A stretch of DNA of 64,000 bases. Origin: Escherichia phage vB_EcoM-UFV09. Each line of letters starts with the position of its first letter. Position 1 is the first letter of the stretch. Both the position numbers and the translations under genes were made by a program. This document shows positions 4,345 through 64,000 of this stretch, piece after piece. Under the pieces are notes generated by a model, which did not search any database, was not told the origin of the DNA, and was given only the letters and a program-made list of their open reading frames with translations. Location: sequence record MZ291552.2. The stretch is one strand, 5' to 3'.

Positions 4345-4614
4345 TTATTTAAAACGAATAGTTGAATCCTTAAAGAACAGCCCAGAACATACTGTTCCTT
4401 CTACTTTCTGCCCGGTAGGTCCAATAGCACGAAATCCAGTATGCTGGAAATCATTTTCAGAGCAACCGAACCAATTGTATCCAGTGATTTCAATATTCGT
4501 AAAACCACTTGATGATAAAATTTTAGTTGCATTATCAGCATCAGTACATCCTACTAAAGATACTGCTAATACTAATGCTGCGATAGAACGATTAACATAT
4601 TTCATAATTTTCAC
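4345..4614 (-). CDS. small lipoprotein-like protein (39.1 position)
   Basis: 89 aa; N-terminal signal peptide ending in a lipobox-like LVGC. Confidence 0.5.
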   Translation of the reverse strand: MKIMKYVNRSIAALVLAVSLVGCTDADNATKILSSSGFTNIEITGYNWFGCSENDFQHTGFRAIGPTGQKVEGTVCSGLFFKDSTIRFK

Positions 4615-12986: not shown

Positions 12987-13169
12987 TTATTTTGCCCAGG
13001 GAGCCCAAGGCGGAGGGTCAAGATGGTATGAAGCTAGTTCTTCTAGAAGAGCATCTGGGGCTTCAATTCCATAATTCTGTAATACTATACGGTACTCTTT
13101 CTTATAATCACTAGAATCATTCTGGATATTCGTAGAATGATTATCTTCTAACATCTCAAATAAATCCAT
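12987..13169 (-). CDS. small hypothetical protein
   Basis: 60-aa ORF. Confidence 0.35.
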   Translation of the reverse strand: MDLFEMLEDNHSTNIQNDSSDYKKEYRIVLQNYGIEAPDALLEELASYHLDPPPWAPWAK

Positions 13170-13177
13170 ACTAATTC

Positions 13178-13648
13178 CTAGCGATAAAAACCAAATTGAC
13201 GATTAGCTTCAATAATCTTTCTTTCTTCTTCGGACATTCTCCAGCGTAGTCCAACATCAAAATGAGCCCAGACCATCTTAACAAATGCATTTATATCTTT
13301 AATATCTTCAATAATGAATGTTTTACTTTTAGAAGGTTGACTCGCTAATTTAACTTTATCGTCTTCAAACAGGTCAAAAAGACTATATTCATGAGCTCTT
13401 TTATAGCCTTTAATAGTTAAAGCTTCGGAAGAAGAAAACGGCGAATCAGTATTCTGCAAAATATCTTCAGTATGCTTTATAATTAGAATAACATTTTCTG
13501 GATATTTTCTTTCTTTTATATCTTTAATTAAAATATCCGGATTTTCTGCTAAAGGAATAATTAATGAGCACTTTTTATCAAGTGTATTTACTGATTTACC
13601 TTCTTTAGACATAAATTCTATTGAATAATGTTTTGCTACTTCAATCAT
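13178..13648 (-). CDS. hypothetical protein
   Basis: 156-aa ORF in the region where T4 carries mrh/srh. Confidence 0.4.
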
Positions 13649-48324: not shown

Positions 48325-49343
48325 TAGTTTAGTGCATTTAGTGCATTGTTCAATTTAGAACGTTGCTTTGTCAGATTTTGAACCCTTGACTGAGCTTGTT
48401 CTAACACCTTTTCAGCTTCTAGCACTTCATTGGTCGCTTTAATGAGTTCAGCATCTACTGCCTTAAGAGACTTCTCAATCGCGTCAGCGTGCCATTTTTC
48501 TACAGGTTTAAAATTTGAATTTTCAGTAGGAAGAAAATTCACTTTATTAAATTTCCATGCATCTTTATTACCTGAGCTATACATCCAAAATTTAGGATCG
48601 TTTGATGAGCAATTAGATAAATTTAAGTTATCTTGTACTTCCTGCTTTTTCTCTTGCGGGACTTCATCCTTTCTCAAAAAATCGTATTTAAATGAAACGA
48701 TCATATCAAGTTCATACGTTGTTGTATGTTCCCAATTTCGCTCAAAATGAGGTAAAATCTTAGACTGAACAGCGGCAACAACATCCATATACTTAAATGC
48801 TTCTGTCAACTGTGATTTAAGGCATTCACAAATTGAAAGAGAATTTTTTGTATTAGGCTTAAAGCTAATTCGTGCAGTTCTATTATTTTCTTTTAACGGT
48901 CTTACTTCCATCTGAAGAGTATAACCATCAAATTTCAGGTTCTTTAAGTTAATGTCAGAACCTTTTAATCGACTAGCAGTAGACAAAATTTGCTTTAATT
49001 GTTTACGGAATAAAGCAATAAATCTCCATTCAAGACGATAATGATTTGGATTAAAAAATCCTGTTGATAAATCAACCTTACTCTGACCAACGCCTTGAAC
49101 AAATAGAGGATTTTTATAATCAATAGTTTTACAGAAATCGGTGAGCTGCTCACGAGCAGTCATTTGTGTAATATATCCCGCTTTACTAAAATGACGTAAC
49201 CATTCACTGCTATTCATATACTTAAAGTGAATGGAACTATTAACTCTATCAGGGTCTAAATTATTTTGGCACAAAAATGTCATAACATTACGGGTATAGC
49301 TAGCATTACGAACCATATCTTCAATTTGAGAACGAGTTTTCAT
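48324..49343 (-). CDS. hypothetical protein with C-terminal coiled coil (member 3 of 4)
   Basis: 339 aa; C-terminal coiled-coil-like tail. Confidence 0.5.
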   Translation of the reverse strand: MKTRSQIEDMVRNASYTRNVMTFLCQNNLDPDRVNSSIHFKYMNSSEWLRHFSKAGYITQMTAREQLTDFCKTIDYKNPLFVQGVGQSKVDLSTGFFNPNHYRLEWRFIALFRKQLKQILSTASRLKGSDINLKNLKFDGYTLQMEVRPLKENNRTARISFKPNTKNSLSICECLKSQLTEAFKYMDVVAAVQSKILPHFERNWEHTTTYELDMIVSFKYDFLRKDEVPQEKKQEVQDNLNLSNCSSNDPKFWMYSSGNKDAWKFNKVNFLPTENSNFKPVEKWHADAIEKSLKAVDAELIKATNEVLEAEKVLEQAQSRVQNLTKQRSKLNNALNALN

Positions 49344-56746: not shown

Positions 56747-57036
56747 TCAGTCTCCAATTTAATGTTCATAATTCTAGCGTATGATTGTGCCATCTCCGCG
56801 CCTCGTTCTATACATTCAAAATCAGAAGAGCACGGGTCATTTTTATAGGTCGTTCTCATAAAACTATAGAATTGTTCAGACGATTCTACGCTTTTATTTT
56901 CAAAAAGTGTATAAACGTGCCTAATACCAGATTCCATAAATTTATCAAAATGAGGATCGACATTCGCTTCAATTGATGGAGATAAAACAAATGACAATCC
57001 TAGCATGGCAAAAAGTGCCGTTGCTTTTAAGGCCAT
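56743..57036 (-). CDS. rI: RI lysis-inhibition antiholin
   Basis: 97 aa with N-terminal signal-anchor; matches recalled T4 RI. Confidence 0.8.
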   Translation of the reverse strand: MALKATALFAMLGLSFVLSPSIEANVDPHFDKFMESGIRHVYTLFENKSVESSEQFYSFMRTTYKNDPCSSDFECIERGAEMAQSYARIMNIKLETE

Positions 57037-57048
57037 AAAGGCCTCCTA

Positions 57049-57261
57049 TCATTTTTGTCCTGTATTTACTTTATGCCGATGCACGGCCTTAACTTTATCA
57101 AGGTATTTTTCAAAATTTCGCAATCTAGTATAGTCTGCCGGAGATTGGTTGAGTGATACTTCTCGACGCAAAGCTGAAATGATATTTCCAACTTCCCTAC
57201 GAATTTCATCTAATTGAAGCACAGTAAGATTGCGAAGTTGCTTTTCAGTTAATTGTAGCAT
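57049..57261 (-). CDS. small hypothetical protein (rI.1 position)
   Basis: 70-aa ORF. Confidence 0.4.
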
Positions 57262-57303
57262 ATATACCCCTTTAGTTAGATAAACCTATTTATAACTTTT
57301 GCA

Positions 57304-57885
57304 CTAACCGAGCTTTTTAGTTAATTCATTCCAATGTTTTCTACACAAAGAAACATAAATTTCATCACCAATACAGATTTGATTACCTTCTTTAACTGGT
57401 GTTCCATCTTCCATTAATCGAGCTGTCATAATCGCTTTTTTACCGCAATGACAAACTGCCTTTAGTTCAATAAGTTTATCTGCAATCGCTAAAAGTTCTT
57501 TAGAACCTTCAAACAATTTTCCAGCGAAATCAGTCCTTAATCCATAAGCCATAACAGGAACATTATATGTATCAACAATTCGACTTAATTGATGCACCTG
57601 TTCAGTTTTTAAAAACTGAGCTTCATCTACAAATACGCAATGAATATCTTTTTGTGCTTCAGCCCATTTATAGAACTCGAAAATATCCATATCATCTGTA
57701 ATAATATTCGCTTCCTGTTTAATTCCAATGCGAGAAACAACTTCACAGACAGAATCGCGAGTATCAATAGCAGGCTTAAGAACTAATACACTCATTCCAC
57801 GTTCTTTATAATTATGTGCAGCAGTCAAAAGAGAAGCAGATTTTCCAGCATTCATTGCTGCATAAGTAAAAATTAAACTCGCCAT
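57304..57885 (-). CDS. tk: thymidine kinase
   Basis: 193 aa; Walker A NAGKS; C-terminal Cys pairs. Confidence 0.95.
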   Translation of the reverse strand: MASLIFTYAAMNAGKSASLLTAAHNYKERGMSVLVLKPAIDTRDSVCEVVSRIGIKQEANIITDDMDIFEFYKWAEAQKDIHCVFVDEAQFLKTEQVHQLSRIVDTYNVPVMAYGLRTDFAGKLFEGSKELLAIADKLIELKAVCHCGKKAIMTARLMEDGTPVKEGNQICIGDEIYVSLCRKHWNELTKKLG

Positions 57886-57894
57886 ATCACCTTC

Positions 57895-58080
57895 TTAAAG
57901 CGTATTCACATAAGCTATTAATTCATTTTCTTTCTTATCAAACCGATCAGCAAATTCTTCCTGCTGCTCGGGAGATAGCGGGCCGTATTCATCATAAAAG
58001 GTGTTTGCTTCTATATGCTCATCTAGAAGTTCATGGATAAGCTCAAACAATTTATCTTTTTGTTCTTTGCTTAGACTCAT
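57895..58080 (-). CDS. small acidic hypothetical protein
   Basis: 61-aa ORF. Confidence 0.4.
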   Translation of the reverse strand: MSLSKEQKDKLFELIHELLDEHIEANTFYDEYGPLSPEQQEEFADRFDKKENELIAYVNTL

Positions 58081-58246
58081 ATATTAATTTCCAGGAGTTT
58101 TAAAATAATTCGCTTTTGCTTAAATATTTCCATAGTTAAATGACCAGTATCTTTTTGACCGATTCCAATGGCAAAACCTTTATTAACAGCGAGTTCAATT
58201 AAATTATCAAGCTCACGTAACACTTCGTATTGTAACTCAAAACTAT

Positions 58247-58474
58247 TCATTTTGGTTTACCTTCTTTAACGAAATCAGGATAAGGGTAAAATCCTGAATA
58301 AAATCCTTCACCTTTATGATTGATGCATCCTTTATTAGAACAATAGCACCAATAATCGAAATCACAAGCCATTTCATCGTTGCATAAAGCAAAAACAACC
58401 GGCCACTTACACTTTTCACAGTGGGCATTTTTAAGAATACTAGTTTGGCTCATAACCATGTAACCTTTAAGCAA
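58247..58474 (-). CDS. small Cys-rich hypothetical protein
   Basis: 75 aa with multiple Cys/His (CEKCKW...CDFDYWCYCSNKGCINH). Confidence 0.4.
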   Translation of the reverse strand: MLKGYMVMSQTSILKNAHCEKCKWPVVFALCNDEMACDFDYWCYCSNKGCINHKGEGFYSGFYPYPDFVKEGKPK

Positions 58475-58662
58475 TATTCTTCTACATGTTGTTTACGACC
58501 TTTCTTATCAATAAAGGTATATTCAACGAATGTTCCAATGTAGTCTTTATCTACATCATGTGGACTATTAATTGGACATTTAGTACGGCAAATGCGTTCC
58601 CATTGACGAATAATTTCCACTTTGTTTTTAGGATCAAACGGATGTGGGTAATGTACTTTCAT
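58450..58662 (-). CDS. small hypothetical protein
   Basis: 70-aa ORF. Confidence 0.4.
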   Translation of the reverse strand: MKVHYPHPFDPKNKVEIIRQWERICRTKCPINSPHDVDKDYIGTFVEYTFIDKKGRKQHVEEYCLKVTWL

Positions 58663-59113
58663 AATCCACCACTATTAAATCAATATCAGGAGTAAACATG
58701 TCGATTAATTTAGAAACCTTATCCCAATCGCCGCCAGCAATACCACAACCTATGCGTGGAATGTAAATTACTGGTTTAAACAAAAGGGTTTCTGCCTGTA
58801 GATTTAATTCTATCATGCAGTTTACTAAAGCACCATAATCAAGATTAGGACCTGGTTCGTATTGCGTATACAAGTTATAACATATGCCAAAACCATTAGG
58901 TTTATGTTTAAAAACAATAGACATATCGCCTAATTTATCACGAGAACCGTACTCGGTAGTGGTTTTATCTATTTCTAAAATTTTGGGATAGGCTCTTGCT
59001 AATTGACCAGCTACACCACTGCCCATTGTATGAAAACAATTGCACCCGTGCGCAATAATATTACCTTCAAGAAAGAGGGCGACAATATCGCCCTTGATAT
59101 ATTTTACAATCAT
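58634..59113 (-). CDS. macrodomain protein (putative ADP-ribose binding/hydrolase)
   Basis: 159 aa; macro-type glycine-rich motifs (…AHGCNCFHTMGSGVAGQLA… and …IGCGIAGGDW…). Confidence 0.55.
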   Translation of the reverse strand: MIVKYIKGDIVALFLEGNIIAHGCNCFHTMGSGVAGQLARAYPKILEIDKTTTEYGSRDKLGDMSIVFKHKPNGFGICYNLYTQYEPGPNLDYGALVNCMIELNLQAETLLFKPVIYIPRIGCGIAGGDWDKVSKLIDMFTPDIDLIVVDYESTLPTSV

Positions 59114-59457
59114 CTAGTACTCAATCCTCGATTATAAGAATCTACCAAACGGTCAACCATTGAATGACAAGCGGCTTTATCTTTCTCCTCCGCAACTGAA
59201 CATTCTAAGGTATTCCACTTTTTAGCATATCGTTTTAATAATGTATCGTTTTTGTATCTGCTTGATTTATCTCTTTCTCCGTCTTTATATGCATATATTA
59301 ATTTCTGCGCAAATTCAGCTTGGCATGCTTTATTTTTCCCACAATAATCTGCCGCAGTGCGGTTCACATACTCCCTAATTTCAGTATATGATGTATCTGC
59401 TGACGCATAAGCAGAAAATGAAATTAATCCTATACATAAAACCAAAATTTTAGTCAT
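59110..59457 (-). CDS. secreted protein (vs position)
   Basis: 115 aa with signal peptide; T4 vs size and position. Confidence 0.4.
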   Translation of the reverse strand: MTKILVLCIGLISFSAYASADTSYTEIREYVNRTAADYCGKNKACQAEFAQKLIYAYKDGERDKSSRYKNDTLLKRYAKKWNTLECSVAEEKDKAACHSMVDRLVDSYNRGLSTR

Positions 59458-59995
59458 TTACTATTTCCAAAAGTTTATTATTTTTAAGGTAGTTAGCCTT
59501 TTCTAGGACTTCAGAAGCATATTTAGAACCTGCTTTAACATTCCATCCCGAATTATAAGAGGATATTGCTTTTCTTATATCGCCCTTATGTATATTTAAC
59601 CAATAAGAAAGTTCAATGTACGCCCAGGAAGCTGAATTGGATCGTTTATTCAACATTCTTTTTATTTCAGCATCGGTCATATTATAACCAAGTTCCTTAA
59701 CTCTTGCTCGCATAGTAGGCAAATAATTTTGGAACATTCCATAAGCGTGATGCTTTGGTTTAGATTTTAAATTAACTCCGCCAGAGCTTTCTTGCCATAA
59801 AATAGCAGCCATTATATGACCTAATCCGCTCTTGTGGATATTTTTATGTGTTTTATATTTTCCATCCTTAGAAAACTGTTCCCCGAATTGATACGCGTAA
59901 CGCATGTTATCGAGTTGGACATTACTGAAAGTATGCTCGGAGCTATGTGCCATCATTGAAATGGCCAATAGACCAGCGAGTAGTGCTTTTCTCAT
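59450..59995 (-). CDS. secreted lytic transglycosylase-like protein (SLT domain)
   Basis: 181 aa; signal peptide; SLT-like motifs WQESSGG, YGMFQ, YNSGW. Confidence 0.5.
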   Translation of the reverse strand: MRKALLAGLLAISMMAHSSEHTFSNVQLDNMRYAYQFGEQFSKDGKYKTHKNIHKSGLGHIMAAILWQESSGGVNLKSKPKHHAYGMFQNYLPTMRARVKELGYNMTDAEIKRMLNKRSNSASWAYIELSYWLNIHKGDIRKAISSYNSGWNVKAGSKYASEVLEKANYLKNNKLLEIVND

Positions 59996-60002
59996 GCTTA
60001 CC

Positions 60003-60464
60003 TCATTGAGTTTTAATTACTGCTTTAGAAGCCTTTCCTGGTAAACGACGACTGTTAATAATTGCCATCCTGCATTGAAGCGACGGGTCTTTGAACTTCG
60101 CATTAGGTTTACAAACTGTAAATCCAAGCCAAAGATTTCCATCTGTGATTTCTAAACGTCCAGGACGATATTCAACCCCATCAATAAAATCCTCGTCAAT
60201 GTCAGGACGCGGAGGCATACTCAGGAATTCATTAACTTCTAAAACATGGTCTTTTATTTTATGGAATAATTCAAAAACGTATGTCTCATCAATCTCCCGT
60301 TGAATTGCGCGATCAAGAAGATGTTGAGAATATTTTAGATGAAACGATGAGACCCCTGCTGCTTTTGATGCCTCACGAATCTCATTGTTAATTTGACGAA
60401 ACTCCGACTCAAAGTGACGACGAAGCTTATTTCGACGGATAAAAACTTCTGTGTTGATAGTCAT
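60003..60464 (-). CDS. regB: RegB site-specific endoribonuclease
   Basis: 153 aa, near-identical to recalled T4 RegB. Confidence 0.9.
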   Translation of the reverse strand: MTINTEVFIRRNKLRRHFESEFRQINNEIREASKAAGVSSFHLKYSQHLLDRAIQREIDETYVFELFHKIKDHVLEVNEFLSMPPRPDIDEDFIDGVEYRPGRLEITDGNLWLGFTVCKPNAKFKDPSLQCRMAIINSRRLPGKASKAVIKTQ

Positions 60465-60491
60465 GTTATTCTCCTCTTAACTGATAGAAAA

Positions 60492-60521
60492 ATTATACCA
60501 CAGTCAAGAGGAAAAGTAAAC
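60492..60521 (-). promoter_or_regulatory. T4-type early promoter
   Basis: Minus strand reads GTTTACttttcctcttgactgtggTATAAT. Confidence 0.5.
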
Positions 60522-60523
60522 AG

Positions 60524-60844
60524 TTATTCTTTAAATCTAATCAATTTATTCATAGACTTTGAAACTTCTGTACGAACCTCATGTAGATTTTTGAGTTGTT
60601 CAAGACGCTGCGTATAGTAAGCAATTTCATCTTCTTCGAGACAGTCCTGTGAATCTTCTTTAAGATAGCGTGCATAGTCCTGGAAAGCGTTACGGATTAC
60701 TTCCTGGAAATCATCAAGACTTTGAATTTTCTTAGGAGCAGCAGATACACGACGAGGGGCAGTATAATACTCATAACCAAACCCTGCGCTTAATTGAGCC
60801 ATTAGTATTTTTCCTCTGGTTGGAACACAGCACGACAAGCCCAC
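60524..60844 (-). CDS. hypothetical protein (vs.3 position)
   Basis: 106-aa ORF. Confidence 0.4.
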
Positions 60845-61104
60845 ATACTGGCTTCTTTGAGTTTCGTTTTAGCAATAGTTAACTGATCGAGGCTTTCGGC
60901 GTAATTCTTCGCGAGTTCATCATCTTCACAGCTATCAAATGCTTCCCAAAATTCATCGTATAAAGCATCAAAGATAAGTCCTAAACGAACTTCAGCGTCT
61001 TTAATAGCATTTACTTTACCGATTTTTTCGTCGGTATGTGGCTTATAACCTTTAATATCTTCAATCATATTTGACTTCCTCACCAGTACATAAATCGTAT
61101 TCAA
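60802..61104 (-). CDS. small acidic protein at the vs.4 position (possible Acb2-like sponge, by synteny only)
   Basis: About 90-100 aa, two genes upstream of the GrcA-like gene; Acb2 assignment is positional and unverified. Confidence 0.3.
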
Positions 61105-61282
61105 CTAAACGAATAGGTTCATGAATGCCATATCCCTGAACAGAAATTTCTGTCGTAGGATAAATTCCATCAATATCACCCATATTCCAGGCTTCGTTAA
61201 ATTGCTGTTCGCCTGAATTACTAAACCACTCGGCGAAAGCATTTAGCACATCTTTAGAACCTTCAATAATTATCTTTGCCAT
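61061..61282 (-). CDS. small hypothetical protein
   Basis: 73-aa ORF. Confidence 0.4.
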   Translation of the reverse strand: MAKIIIEGSKDVLNAFAEWFSNSGEQQFNEAWNMGDIDGIYPTTEISVQGYGIHEPIRLVEYDLCTGEEVKYD

Positions 61283-61644
61283 TACAAACTCTCGGTAAAG
61301 GTACGAGCGATAACGTCGCGCTGCTGTTCCGGAGTCAGAGAGTTAAAGCGAACTGCATAACCGGATACACGGATGGTCAGCTGCGGATATTTTTCCGGAT
61401 GCTTAACTGCATCTTCCAGAGTTTCACGACGCAGAACGTTAACGTTCAGGTGTTGACCACCTTCAATTTTAACTGTAGGCTGTTGCTCAATTTCAATTTC
61501 ACGGGCATGCAAACCGTAGAAAATTTCTGGGTCTACAAAAGAGTCCTCTTTAAAAGTTTTAGAGACAATAATTCGTGCTTGAATACCATCTTCAAAATAA
61601 ATAGTACCTTTATGCGTGCCTTCAAGAATTTGATATGCTTTCAT
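61282..61644 (-). CDS. autonomous glycyl-radical cofactor (GrcA/YfiD-like)
   Basis: 120 aa; C-terminal ~60 aa including glycyl-radical motif [25 protein letters not shown] closely resemble E. coli GrcA; T4 carries a known homolog (Y06Q). Confidence 0.85.
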
Positions 61645-61651
61645 ATAAACC

Positions 61652-62032
61652 TCAATTAGAAAATAAATTTATCCAAGATTGTTCTTTAATTAAAAATGGC
61701 TCAGAATCATATGCCATTAAACTCTGCGTGATTAGTCCTTTAAAAGGTCCATCAATAAATTCCATGGTAAAATATGGAATTTTATTCATTAGCCGTGCGT
61801 TAGGAGCAGTACATAAAACTCTGCATCCTTTGAATACGCCTTTTTGTAATTTGTATTGCTTAGGATAAAATTCGCTCAAGACGTTGTTATTTGCCAAAAT
61901 TTCAAAATGATTCACCAATTTATTTTTAATAGTTTTTGGCGAAAAATAAAGATATTCGAAAAGTTGCGTGTCTGTCATCATTGCATTCCGATTATGAAAA
62001 ACTGTGGACGAGTAATACCACCAATGCAACAT
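61652..62032 (-). CDS. hypothetical protein
   Basis: 126-aa ORF. Confidence 0.4.
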
Positions 62033-62565
62033 TTAATATTACAGCAGCAGTGTACAGTTTCAATATGGACACTATAAATCTTATCCATATCAGGAGATTT
62101 GACAGGTTCATCAATTATATACAAAATTCGCGAAAGCGATAAACCTCTGAACTTGCTTCCTTTATTACCAATAAAACTGCGCACAGAATCAGCAAATAAA
62201 CGAAAACGTATATCATCATTAGAATAACGCGAAAATTCCTTTTTAATGTTATTTGAAGAAATTTTAGCGTAAGCTGAAGTATTAGAAAGAACAATAACTG
62301 TTCCGCCATCATACAACCAATTAGCGGCAAAATTAGTTACTGCAGTTGATTTACCGGATTGACGTCCACCATCTAGTCGAAGTGTGCAATACTGCTTAAG
62401 TAAGTCTTCAAATGGTGGGATATAATCGTTTTTACAAATTTCTTCTACTCTAGCGTCAGAATGGTGTGTAAAAGCATTCATCAGGGATAGATAAGGACCA
62501 GTTAAAAATGTTCTCATTTTATTCTCTCTAAATTTGGGCCATTCCATGGCGCATGAATTGTCCAT
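61978..62565 (-). CDS. P-loop NTPase
   Basis: 195 aa; Walker A GGRQSGKST, Walker B-like ILYIIDEP. Confidence 0.45.
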   Translation of the reverse strand: MDNSCAMEWPKFRENKMRTFLTGPYLSLMNAFTHHSDARVEEICKNDYIPPFEDLLKQYCTLRLDGGRQSGKSTAVTNFAANWLYDGGTVIVLSNTSAYAKISSNNIKKEFSRYSNDDIRFRLFADSVRSFIGNKGSKFRGLSLSRILYIIDEPVKSPDMDKIYSVHIETVHCCCNIKCCIGGITRPQFFIIGMQ

Positions 62566-62670
62566 TTCTGTATTTACCCATTACCGCACTTGGGCTCGAC
62601 CTTATTACAGGTTGGCGGGAATCCCTCACAGAATCATGAGGTCCAGCTTGTTCCCATATTTCTTATTTGC

Positions 62671-63144
62671 TTATTTGAATGATTTAACGTACTGAATAGA
62701 ACCTTTACTATTCACAAAGGCAATTTTACCATTTTTGTTATACATAGTAGCAGTACGTTGATAGCCATAAGTTTGTTTACCAGATTGATAACCAACTAAT
62801 GCGAAATTATCTTCACCCATTTTATTCTGTTTAGCGCGAATGCGTTCATGACCATGTGCCATAAGAACCTTAGCATCACCAGTTGCAATGGACCGACGAG
62901 TTTTTTCATCTTCAACTGTATTAACAAAGTCGTCAAATGAATCAAATTTAGCATGAGATTTATTATACAGTTTTCCATCTACTGCATAATTATATCCTTG
63001 TACATCCATCTCAACTTCTGTACCATCATCTAATACCGCAGTAATTTTCTGTCCTTTTTTAAATTTCAAAAGATCAGTAAAAGATTCAGCAATAATTTGA
63101 GAATTAATAGCTGCTTCAGTAATAAATTCTTTATACGTTTTCAT
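62671..63144 (-). CDS. internal protein (IP-family, capsid-targeting leader)
   Basis: 157 aa; N-terminal MKTYKEFITEA matches the T4 IP capsid-targeting sequence; located between the vs genes and e. Confidence 0.6.
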   Translation of the reverse strand: MKTYKEFITEAAINSQIIAESFTDLLKFKKGQKITAVLDDGTEVEMDVQGYNYAVDGKLYNKSHAKFDSFDDFVNTVEDEKTRRSIATGDAKVLMAHGHERIRAKQNKMGEDNFALVGYQSGKQTYGYQRTATMYNKNGKIAFVNSKGSIQYVKSFK

Positions 63145-63160
63145 GTGTATCCTTTAATTT

Positions 63161-63478
63161 TTATTCTTTAGGGAAGTTTTTAGAATATGCATCATAAAGC
63201 TTATTTCCAATACGGCGGAAAACTCTAGCCGCAAAACGATTTTCTGGGTTTTTAATCATGATTTGCATCATATAAGTACCCGCGTCAGAAAGAGCTTCTT
63301 CATAGTACCCGTTAATTTCTTTAAGAGTCCTACGTTTACCACCAGGACCATCAACAGTGATTTTCCATTTACCTGTAGAAGTGCGACTTGGCGGTTCAAC
63401 TTGTTCAATCCAGATATAACCGCCTTCTACACGCTGTCCTGCAACAGATTCTGCAATAAATTCTTTATACGTTTTCAT
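63161..63478 (-). CDS. internal protein (IP-family, capsid-targeting leader)
   Basis: 105 aa; N-terminal MKTYKEFIAES; body unrelated to the neighbouring IP. Confidence 0.6.
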   Translation of the reverse strand: MKTYKEFIAESVAGQRVEGGYIWIEQVEPPSRTSTGKWKITVDGPGGKRRTLKEINGYYEEALSDAGTYMMQIMIKNPENRFAARVFRRIGNKLYDAYSKNFPKE

Positions 63479-63516
63479 GTGTTTCCTTTAAATATTTTAA
63501 TTAGTAACTGTGAATA

Positions 63517-63545
63517 TACTATCACAGTTTTAGGAGAAAGTAAAC
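63517..63545 (-). promoter_or_regulatory. early-type promoter downstream of e
   Basis: Minus strand reads GTTTAC, ~18 nt, TAGTAT. Confidence 0.35.
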
Positions 63546-63549
63546 AACT

Positions 63550-64000
<451 letters not shown>

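What the first reader, a model, noticed from the sequence alone, without database searches (positions are those of the whole stretch)
60802..61104. Small protein at the vs.4 position, possible anti-CBASS sponge by synteny
Gene order downstream of regB matches T4 vs.3 through vs.8, anchored by the GrcA-like gene at the vs.6 slot. In T4 the vs.4 product has been reported as Acb2, a cyclic-oligonucleotide sponge. The ORF here has the right size class and position. I cannot confirm sequence identity from memory, so this rests on position alone.
Basis: inference. Interest (0 to 1): 0.4.

Follow-up and report, generated by a model that had tools for sequence, protein, structure and literature searches.

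The report
T4-type Acb2 anti-CBASS sponge gene

Summary
The ORF is real and is the vs.4/acb2 orthologue of a T4-like phage (Tequatrovirus). The window is 100% identical over 59900-62700 to Escherichia phage vB_EcoM-UFV05. The real gene is 60802-61068: an ATG preceded by GAGGAAG, giving 88 aa. It overlaps the vs.5 stop by 8 nt and the vs.3 start as TAATG.

The protein is 83/88 identical to T4 Vs.4, which has been crystallised with cGAMP (PDB 7UQ2, E 4e-53). It passes the Pfam Acb2/Tad1 hairpin model (71 bits, cut-off 27) and matches PHROG 717. Its predicted structure finds 7UQ2 first and Pseudomonas phage PaMx33 Acb2 next.

All published cGAMP-contacting residues (Y8, H11, K23, S74, R79, F82) and hexamer or stability residues (T12, L29, F33, L60, A66, A73, A77) are retained. 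Four of the five substitutions lie in the variable hairpin tip. The residues blamed for T4-Acb2 not binding cyclic trinucleotides are also unchanged.

An identical protein is encoded by BASEL phage Bas44 and many other sequenced phages. The synteny claim (regB, vs.3 to vs.8, GrcA-like vs.6) is confirmed.

Verdict: interpretation supported, already known, low interest. Binding and the anti-CBASS phenotype were not tested for this allele.

The parts
60802..61068 (-). vs.4 / acb2 coding sequence (88 aa plus TAA stop): [88 protein letters not shown]
   Evidence: 83/88 identical to T4 Vs.4, PDB 7UQ2, E 4e-53. Pfam PF24729, 71 bits against a cut-off of 27. PHROG 717, E 5.6e-32. Same CDS called in UFV05 and same length as T4 vs.4. 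100% identical to Bas44 bas44_0232.
61075..61081 (-). Shine-Dalgarno-like GAGGAAG, 6 nt upstream of the ATG at 61068; it lies inside the 3' end of vs.5
   Evidence: Read directly from the sequence. Identical in T4.
61061..61068 (-). 8-nt overlap ATGATTGA between the vs.4 start codon and the vs.5 stop codon (layout typical of translational coupling)
60800..60804 (-). TAATG stop/start overlap between vs.4 and vs.3
   Evidence: junction sequence AAATACTAATGGCT. Same arrangement in T4 and AR1.
61069..61104 (-).
   Evidence: No homologue extends upstream of the MIEDIK start by more than one residue. T4 and UFV05 annotations start at the ATG.
60524..60802 (-). vs.3 (92 aa), downstream neighbour; synteny context only
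   Evidence: PHROG 2037. Annotated vs.3 in AR1 and T4.
61061..61282 (-). vs.5 (73 aa), upstream neighbour; synteny context only
   Evidence: PHROG 1986, full length. Aligned to the T4 vs.5 region.
   Evidence: Pfam Gly_radical, 67 bits. Annotated vs.6 in AR1 and T4.
60003..60464 (-). regB endoribonuclease; synteny anchor
   Evidence: Pfam REGB_T4, 230 bits.

Best explanation
The gene at 60802-61068 (minus strand) is the vs.4/acb2 orthologue of a Tequatrovirus.

Inferred mechanism, carried over from T4. The 88-aa helical-hairpin protein assembles into a hexamer. Each of three dimer interfaces forms a pocket in which Y8 and F82 stack on the bases of a cyclic dinucleotide, and H11, K23, S74 and R79 contact it. 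By holding 3',3'-cGAMP and related cyclic dinucleotides at tens-of-nM affinity without degrading them, it keeps the signal away from CBASS effectors such as CapV, so the infected cell does not kill itself before phage release.

Like T4-Acb2, it should not bind cyclic trinucleotides. It should also bind the decoy 2',3'-c-di-AMP and so make the phage sensitive to Panoptes (OptSE) systems.

Shown here: sequence identity, family membership, predicted fold, conservation of every published functional residue, gene position, and the start codon. Inferred: hexamer formation, ligand binding and the anti-CBASS phenotype for this particular allele.
For: - **Sequence:** 94% identity over the full length to the crystallised T4 Vs.4-cGAMP complex, 7UQ2.
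- **Family models:** PF24729 above the curated cut-off. PHROG 717, the family used by Jenson et al. to define Vs.4 homologues (PMC10097602).
- **Fold:** AlphaFold2 model with pLDDT 87.6 and two long helices. Its only Foldseek PDB hits better than E 0.01 are 7UQ2 (TM 0.76) and PaMx33 Acb2 8H2X/8H2J (TM 0.73).
- **Functional residues:** Y8, H11, T12, K23, L29, F33, L60, A66, A73, S74, A77, R79 and F82 are all retained. The six ligand-contacting residues among them (Y8, H11, K23, S74, R79, F82) are invariant across 28 to 36 homologues down to 56% identity.
- **Substitutions:** the five changes are E13D, L44F, N46S, C50D and F52L. Four are in the hairpin tip (helix 1 end, loop 46-49, helix 2 start), the least conserved and indel-bearing part of the family.
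- **Selection:** 12 synonymous against 5 non-synonymous codon differences from T4.
- **Allele frequency:** 59 phage records encode a protein at least 99% identical.
- **Indirect functional evidence:** the protein is 100% identical to that of BASEL phage Bas44. Panoptes, a defence shown in T4 to be triggered by nucleotide-binding Acb2, restricts Bas44 more than 100-fold (PMC12657218).
- **Trinucleotide pocket:** Y37, A57, L60, D61, T64 and T68 are unchanged from T4 (sequence; PMC10312549).
- **Genome context:** the matching genome UFV05 also encodes Acb1 (gene 57B), 150/151 identical to T4, the same Acb1 plus Acb2 pairing as T4.
Against: No biochemical or genetic data exist for this exact allele as far as I could find. 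The Bas44/Panoptes link is circumstantial, because the acb2 dependence of Panoptes was shown for T4 and Bas38, not Bas44. The monomer model cannot show hexamerisation, and its N and C tails, which build the pocket across the dimer, are low confidence (pLDDT 51 and 65 for the first and last blocks of residues). C50D removes one of three cysteines, with unknown consequence.
Confidence: 0.95

Rival explanations
1. The gene is an Acb2-family member whose hairpin-tip substitutions have changed its ligand range. For example, it might reject the Panoptes decoy 2',3'-c-di-AMP, or bind the Thoeris signal 3'cADPR as some distant Acb2 homologues do.
For: Four of the five differences from T4 cluster at residues 44-52. 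This is the most variable segment of the family. Acb2 homologues that bind 3'cADPR exist (bioRxiv 10.1101/2025.08.24.671296).
Against: All pocket residues are identical to T4 and invariant in the family. In the model the substituted residues are at the far end of the hairpin from the N and C tails that carry the cGAMP-contacting residues (pocket residues from PMC10097602). Phage Bas44, with the identical protein, is still restricted by Panoptes (PMC12657218). The Thoeris-inhibiting homologues are reported as separate clades of the Acb2 tree.
Confidence: 0.03
2. The gene is a decayed or inactive copy: it is expressed, but the substitutions (for example C50D or L44F) prevent folding or hexamer formation.
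For: No direct functional data exist for this allele.
Against: The frame is intact, with a conserved SD and start. Differences from T4 are mostly synonymous. At least 59 phage records from many isolates and hosts encode a protein at least 99% identical. The model is confident across residues 11-80. None of the five changes coincides with the published loss-of-function positions T12, L29, L60, A66, A73, S74, A77, Y8 or F82 (PMC10097602, PMC12657218).
Confidence: 0.02
3. The protein is the 100-aa product starting at TTG 61104, as in the reader's coordinates, or the 93-aa product starting at GTG 61083, with an N-terminal extension.
For: The ORF is open from 61104. AR1's depositors annotated a longer 297-nt vs.4.
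Against: No SD-like sequence precedes the TTG or the GTG, whereas GAGGAAG precedes the ATG. Homologues from many genera all start at MIEDIK or M-x-IEDIK. The 88-aa T4 protein is the form that crystallised as a functional hexamer (PMC10097602). An N-terminal extension would sit next to Y8 in the binding pocket.
Confidence: 0.02

Closest known systems
Phage T4 Vs.4 / Acb2 (PDB 7UQ2; Jenson et al. 2023, PMC10097602)
   Same: Same genus-level genome context and gene slot. Same length (88 aa). 83/88 identical residues. All published cGAMP-contacting, helix-cap and hexamer-interface residues identical. Same SD and TAATG junction with vs.3. Same residues at the occluded trinucleotide site.
   Different: Five substitutions: E13D, L44F, N46S, C50D and F52L, mostly at the hairpin tip. 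The upstream vs.5 is an intact 73-aa gene that overlaps vs.4 by 8 nt, whereas the T4 reference record has a 1-nt shorter, frameshifted 58-aa vs.5 ending 36 nt upstream.
Pseudomonas phage PaMx33 Acb2 (PDB 8H2J/8H2X/8IXZ; Huiting et al. 2023; Cao et al., PMC10312549)
   Same: Same Pfam family and same helical-hairpin fold (TM 0.73). The Tyr and Lys of the dinucleotide pocket are conserved (PaMx33 Y11/K26, here Y8/K23). Same sponge mechanism.
   Different: Only about 23-24% identity; sequence-only match is marginal (E 0.09). PaMx33 Acb2 has a second pocket that binds cA3/cAAG through R67 and T74. Here, as in T4, the equivalent positions are D61 and T68 and the helix lacks the kink, so trinucleotide binding is not expected.
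Acb1 (T4 gene 57B), the nuclease-type anti-CBASS protein
   Same: Same target pathway. It is co-resident in the same genome: UFV05 71009-71464, outside the window, 150/151 identical to T4.
   Different: Unrelated fold and mechanism. Acb1 degrades cyclic nucleotides, whereas Acb2 sequesters them intact.

Membership tests
Acb2 / Vs.4 sponge family (Pfam PF24729, PHROG 717) | Significant sequence match to the family model and to a characterised member | tested here: met
   PF24729: 71 bits against a cut-off of 27, E 9e-20. PHROG 717: E 5.6e-32. T4 Vs.4 7UQ2: E 4e-53, 83/88 identical.
Acb2 / Vs.4 sponge family (Pfam PF24729, PHROG 717) | Two-helix hairpin fold of about 90 aa with extended N and C tails | tested here: met
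   AlphaFold2 model with pLDDT 87.6 and helices at 13-45 and 50-81. Foldseek top hits are 7UQ2 (E 1e-11, TM 0.76) and PaMx33 Acb2 8H2X/8H2J (TM 0.73). This is a prediction, not an experimental structure.
Acb2 / Vs.4 sponge family (Pfam PF24729, PHROG 717) | Cyclic-dinucleotide pocket residues: stacking Tyr8 and Phe82, plus His11, Lys23, Ser74 and Arg79 (T4 numbering) | tested here: met
   All six are present at the same positions and invariant in 28 to 36 aligned homologues. Residue roles are from PMC10097602.
Acb2 / Vs.4 sponge family (Pfam PF24729, PHROG 717) | Hexamer-interface and stability residues whose mutation abolishes function (T12, L29, F33, A66, A73, A77) | tested here: met
   All are retained. 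Roles are from PMC10097602. Actual hexamer assembly was not modelled.
Acb2 / Vs.4 sponge family (Pfam PF24729, PHROG 717) | Homohexamer binding three cyclic dinucleotides with nM affinity, without cleavage | not testable with these tools
   Needs AUC or SEC-MALS, ITC, and HPLC release after proteinase K. Inferred from 94% identity to T4 Vs.4.
Acb2 / Vs.4 sponge family (Pfam PF24729, PHROG 717) | Protects the phage from CBASS in vivo | not testable with these tools
   Needs a deletion mutant plated on CBASS hosts. The only indirect hint is that Bas44, which has the identical protein, is Panoptes-sensitive (PMC12657218).
T4 vs.4 orthologue (positional) | Located between vs.3 and vs.5 in the regB to vs.8 early-gene block, on the same strand | tested here: met
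Dual-pocket Acb2 subgroup (PaMx33/JBD67 type, binds cA3/cAAG as well) | Arg and Thr at the PaMx33 R67/T74 positions, and a kinked helix that opens a trinucleotide pocket | tested here: not met
   The equivalents are D61 and T68, as in T4. The clash residues Y37, A57, L60, D61 and T64 are identical to T4-Acb2, which does not bind cA3 even as D61R (sequence; PMC10312549). The protein is therefore filed with the dinucleotide-only T4/CHI14 subgroup.

The most novel reading that the evidence does not exclude
The cluster of hairpin-tip changes (L44F, N46S, C50D, F52L) that separates this widespread allele from the T4 laboratory allele might be adaptive rather than neutral. It could tune hexamer stability or ligand selectivity, or let the sponge escape a host factor that recognises the sponge protein itself.
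Probability: 0.04. Interest if true: 0.4.

Novelty: already known. Interest (0 to 1): 0.08.

Why it matters
As biology it adds nothing new. T4 Vs.4/Acb2 has been characterised structurally, biochemically and genetically since 2023, and proteins identical to this one are already in public phage genomes.

Its practical value is annotation. In UFV05 and most of the 60 closest of the 498 matching phage records the gene is still labelled 'hypothetical protein'; only one of those 60 calls it 'anti-CBASS protein 2'. Recognising it predicts three things for this phage. It should resist cyclic-dinucleotide CBASS. Together with its Acb1, it should resist a broad range of CBASS types. It should be vulnerable to Panoptes decoy systems. 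All three are relevant when choosing therapeutic phages.

Tried and rejected
- **Longer TTG/GTG starts (61104, 61083):** rejected. They lack an SD, and all homologues start at the ATG.
- **Terminator-like hairpin at 60837-60854 and promoter-like hits inside the gene:** rejected. They are on the opposite (+) strand, and their number is no greater than in shuffled sequence.
- **RegB target motif:** I looked for GGAG in the vs.4 ribosome-binding region. The sequence is GGTGAGGAAG, with no GGAG, so there is no sign of RegB cleavage at this SD. Not pursued further.
- **Bas38 link:** I tried to tie this exact allele to the experimentally tested Bas38 acb2. Bas38 is AugustSocin, which is not among the 60 closest records. 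The identical protein is in Bas44 instead, for which only phage-level Panoptes restriction is reported.
- **Sequence-only search against PaMx33 Acb2:** marginal (E 0.09). The relationship rests on Pfam and on the fold.

Full report
**What is in the sequence**

Listing ORFs over 57000-64000 shows a tight run of minus-strand genes. Three candidate starts exist: TTG at 61104, GTG at 61083 and ATG at 61068. Only the ATG has a Shine-Dalgarno-like element, GAGGAAG at 61075-61081 with a 6-nt spacer.

The ATG lies inside ATGATTGA, which also holds the vs.5 stop codon, giving an 8-nt overlap. The stop of the gene overlaps the next start as TAATG. The gene is therefore 60802-61068, 88 aa. T4 vs.4 is annotated with the same 267-nt length, and the depositors of the identical genome called the same CDS. 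Homologues from many genera all begin at MIEDIK or M-x-IEDIK.

**Where the window comes from**

Megablast of 59900-62700 finds 895 phage records. Four of them, Escherichia phages vB_EcoM-UFV05, 06, 10 and 11, match at 100%. The other close matches (90% identity or more) are T4-like Tequatrovirus phages; lower-identity hits include Klebsiella and other phages.

Annotated AR1 and T4 show the same order: vs, vs.1, regB, vs.3, vs.4, vs.5, vs.6, vs.7, vs.8. Pfam confirms the anchors in the window: REGB_T4 at 230 bits for 60003-60464, and Gly_radical at 67 bits for 61282-61644.

**Identity of the protein**

- A search of PDB sequences returns T4 Vs.4 (7UQ2, the cGAMP complex) at E 4.4e-53. The alignment is full length with no gaps. 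The next hits are Pseudomonas phage PaMx33 Acb2 entries, at a marginal E of 0.09.
- Pfam gives PF24729 Acb2_Tad1_hairpin at 71 bits against a gathering cut-off of 27.
- PHROGs gives phrog_717 at E 5.6e-32. This is the family Jenson et al. used to collect Vs.4 homologues (PMC10097602).
- An AlphaFold2 model built on 36 homologues has mean pLDDT 87.6 and two long helices at 13-45 and 50-81.
- In a Foldseek search of the PDB, the only hits better than E 0.01 are the chains of 7UQ2 (E about 1e-11, TM 0.76) and PaMx33 Acb2 8H2X/8H2J (TM 0.73).

It is not met.

**Functional residues**

Jenson et al. (PMC10097602, read) report the following for T4 Vs.4:

- It forms a hexamer that binds three 3',3'-cGAMP molecules with a Kd of about 30 nM.
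- Y8 and F82 stack on the bases.
- Y8, H11, K23 and R79 make hydrogen bonds or salt bridges.
- S74N interferes with ligand contacts, and T12I removes a helix cap.
- L29, A66, A73 and A77 are needed for hexamerisation, and F33A destabilises the hexamer.
- L60F came out of the genetic screen.

All thirteen positions are unchanged here. In alignments of 28 and 36 homologues reaching down to 56% identity, Y8, H11, K23, A66, S74, A77, R79 and F82 are invariant, and T12 and L29 are nearly so.

The five differences from T4 are E13D, L44F, N46S, C50D and F52L. Position 13 alternates between D and E across the family. The other four sit at the tip of the hairpin (end of helix 1, loop 46-49, start of helix 2). 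This is the least conserved and indel-bearing part of the family.

At the DNA level there are 20 differences from T4 in 267 nt. Twelve codons differ synonymously and five non-synonymously.

**Ligand range**

Cao et al. (PMC10312549) showed that T4-Acb2 binds cyclic dinucleotides (Kd about 84 nM for 3',3'-cGAMP) but not cA3 or cAAG. They attributed this to an unkinked helix and to clashes from Y37, A57, L60, D61 and T64. D61R did not rescue binding. T68 corresponds to PaMx33 T74.

All of these residues are identical in the window protein. I therefore expect the dinucleotide-only spectrum and file it with the T4/CHI14 subgroup, not the dual-pocket PaMx33 subgroup.

The Panoptes study (PMC12657218) showed that T4 Acb2 also binds 2',3'-c-di-AMP (Kd about 62 nM). 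This binding triggers OptSE defence, and 14 of 15 escape mutants carried mutations exclusively in acb2/vs.4.

**How widespread this allele is**

- tblastn finds 1242 phage records with a homologue. Of these, 59 are at least 99% identical at the protein level, and T4 itself is at 94.3%.
- At the DNA level, 44 records are at least 99% identical. Almost all of the listed records label the gene 'hypothetical protein'. One record (PV857777.1) labels it 'anti-CBASS protein 2'.
- The protein of BASEL phage AdolfPortmann (locus tag bas44_0232) is 88/88 identical. Bas44 is among the Tequatroviruses restricted more than 100-fold by VnOptSE.

The Bas44 result is indirect support that this allele is an active nucleotide sponge. 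The acb2 dependence of Panoptes was demonstrated only for T4 and Bas38. Bas38 is AugustSocin and does not carry this exact allele among the closest records.

**Wider context**

The matching genome UFV05 also encodes the nuclease-type anti-CBASS protein Acb1 (gene 57B). It is 150/151 identical to T4 and scores 201 bits against Pfam PF23474. Its position corresponds to about 7 kb beyond the end of this window. The phage therefore has the same Acb1 plus Acb2 pairing discussed for T4.

**Mechanism and confidence**

I commit to the following reading. The gene encodes an Acb2-type hexameric sponge that sequesters CBASS cyclic dinucleotides.

- **Shown here:** homology, predicted fold, residue conservation, gene structure and synteny.
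- **Inferred:** oligomerisation, binding affinities and the phenotype for this allele.

Confidence is about 0.95. Three rivals each rate a few percent or less: altered ligand specificity through the tip substitutions, an inactive copy, and a longer N-terminally extended product.

**Novelty and score**

This is an already-known protein in an already-sequenced phage lineage. The only open point is whether the tip polymorphism has any functional meaning. Nothing here suggests that it does.

Noticed in passing
window 61061-61282 (-); compare L002 (T4 NC_000866) 4382-4558: vs.5 is an intact 73-aa gene here, matching PHROG 1986 over its full length and overlapping vs.4 by 8 nt. The T4 reference record lacks one base (GCTTTCG-CGAG against GCTTTCGCCGAG). 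It is annotated as a 58-aa frameshifted product ending 36 nt before vs.4. The rest of the 73-aa protein is still readable in another frame of T4. This is either a real lab-strain frameshift or an old sequencing error in the T4 reference.
   Followed up: partly
window 58634-59113 (-): A 159-aa protein at the tk.4 slot carries a Macro domain (PF01661, 33 bits). T4 tk.4 is annotated 'phosphatase, A1pp motif'. An ADP-ribose-binding or -hydrolysing domain sits in an early-gene block beside known anti-defence genes. It could be a counter-defence candidate, for example against ADP-ribosylating or ADPR-signalling systems.
   Followed up: no
window 62671-63144 (-) and 63161-63478 (-): Two adjacent proteins both start MKTYKEFI(T/A)E, a shared leader resembling the capsid-targeting sequence of T4 internal proteins (from memory). 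The first is annotated Ip4 in AR1 and matches DUF7412 at 318 bits. The second has no Pfam hit. They lie between the lysozyme gene e and vs.8. From memory this is where T4 carries ipII and ipIII, so it is probably the polymorphic internal-protein locus.
   Followed up: partly
phage record PV654520.1 (hits H26/H95), 48864-49130: A 142-kb record named 'Pseudomonas phage vB_PSGBLB0006', with host P. aeruginosa ATCC 9027, carries a vs.4 gene 99.6% identical in DNA and 100% identical in protein to this E. coli Tequatrovirus. It looks like a mislabelled host or a contaminated or mixed assembly.
   Followed up: no
L004 (UFV05 OP572230.1) 13010-13465, about 7 kb beyond the window end: The same phage genome encodes Acb1 (gene 57B), 150/151 identical to T4, with Pfam Acb1 at 201 bits. 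It is annotated only as 'hypothetical protein' in UFV05 and as 'RNA ligase' in the T4 RefSeq record.
   Followed up: yes
window 60492-60520 (-): The best sigma-70-like match in the region (TTTACT, 17-nt spacer, TATAAT, with an extended -10 TG) lies in the vs.3 to regB intergenic gap. It is positioned to drive regB independently of the upstream vs genes. It is only a consensus match; the total number of promoter-like hits in the region is no greater than in shuffled sequence.
   Followed up: no
phage records OM337876.1 (H54) and Yersinia phage vB_YenM_P8 (P0028): In these records the Vs.4/Acb2 homologue is annotated 'RegB-like RNA endonuclease'. This looks like an annotation error carried over from the neighbouring gene.
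   Followed up: no
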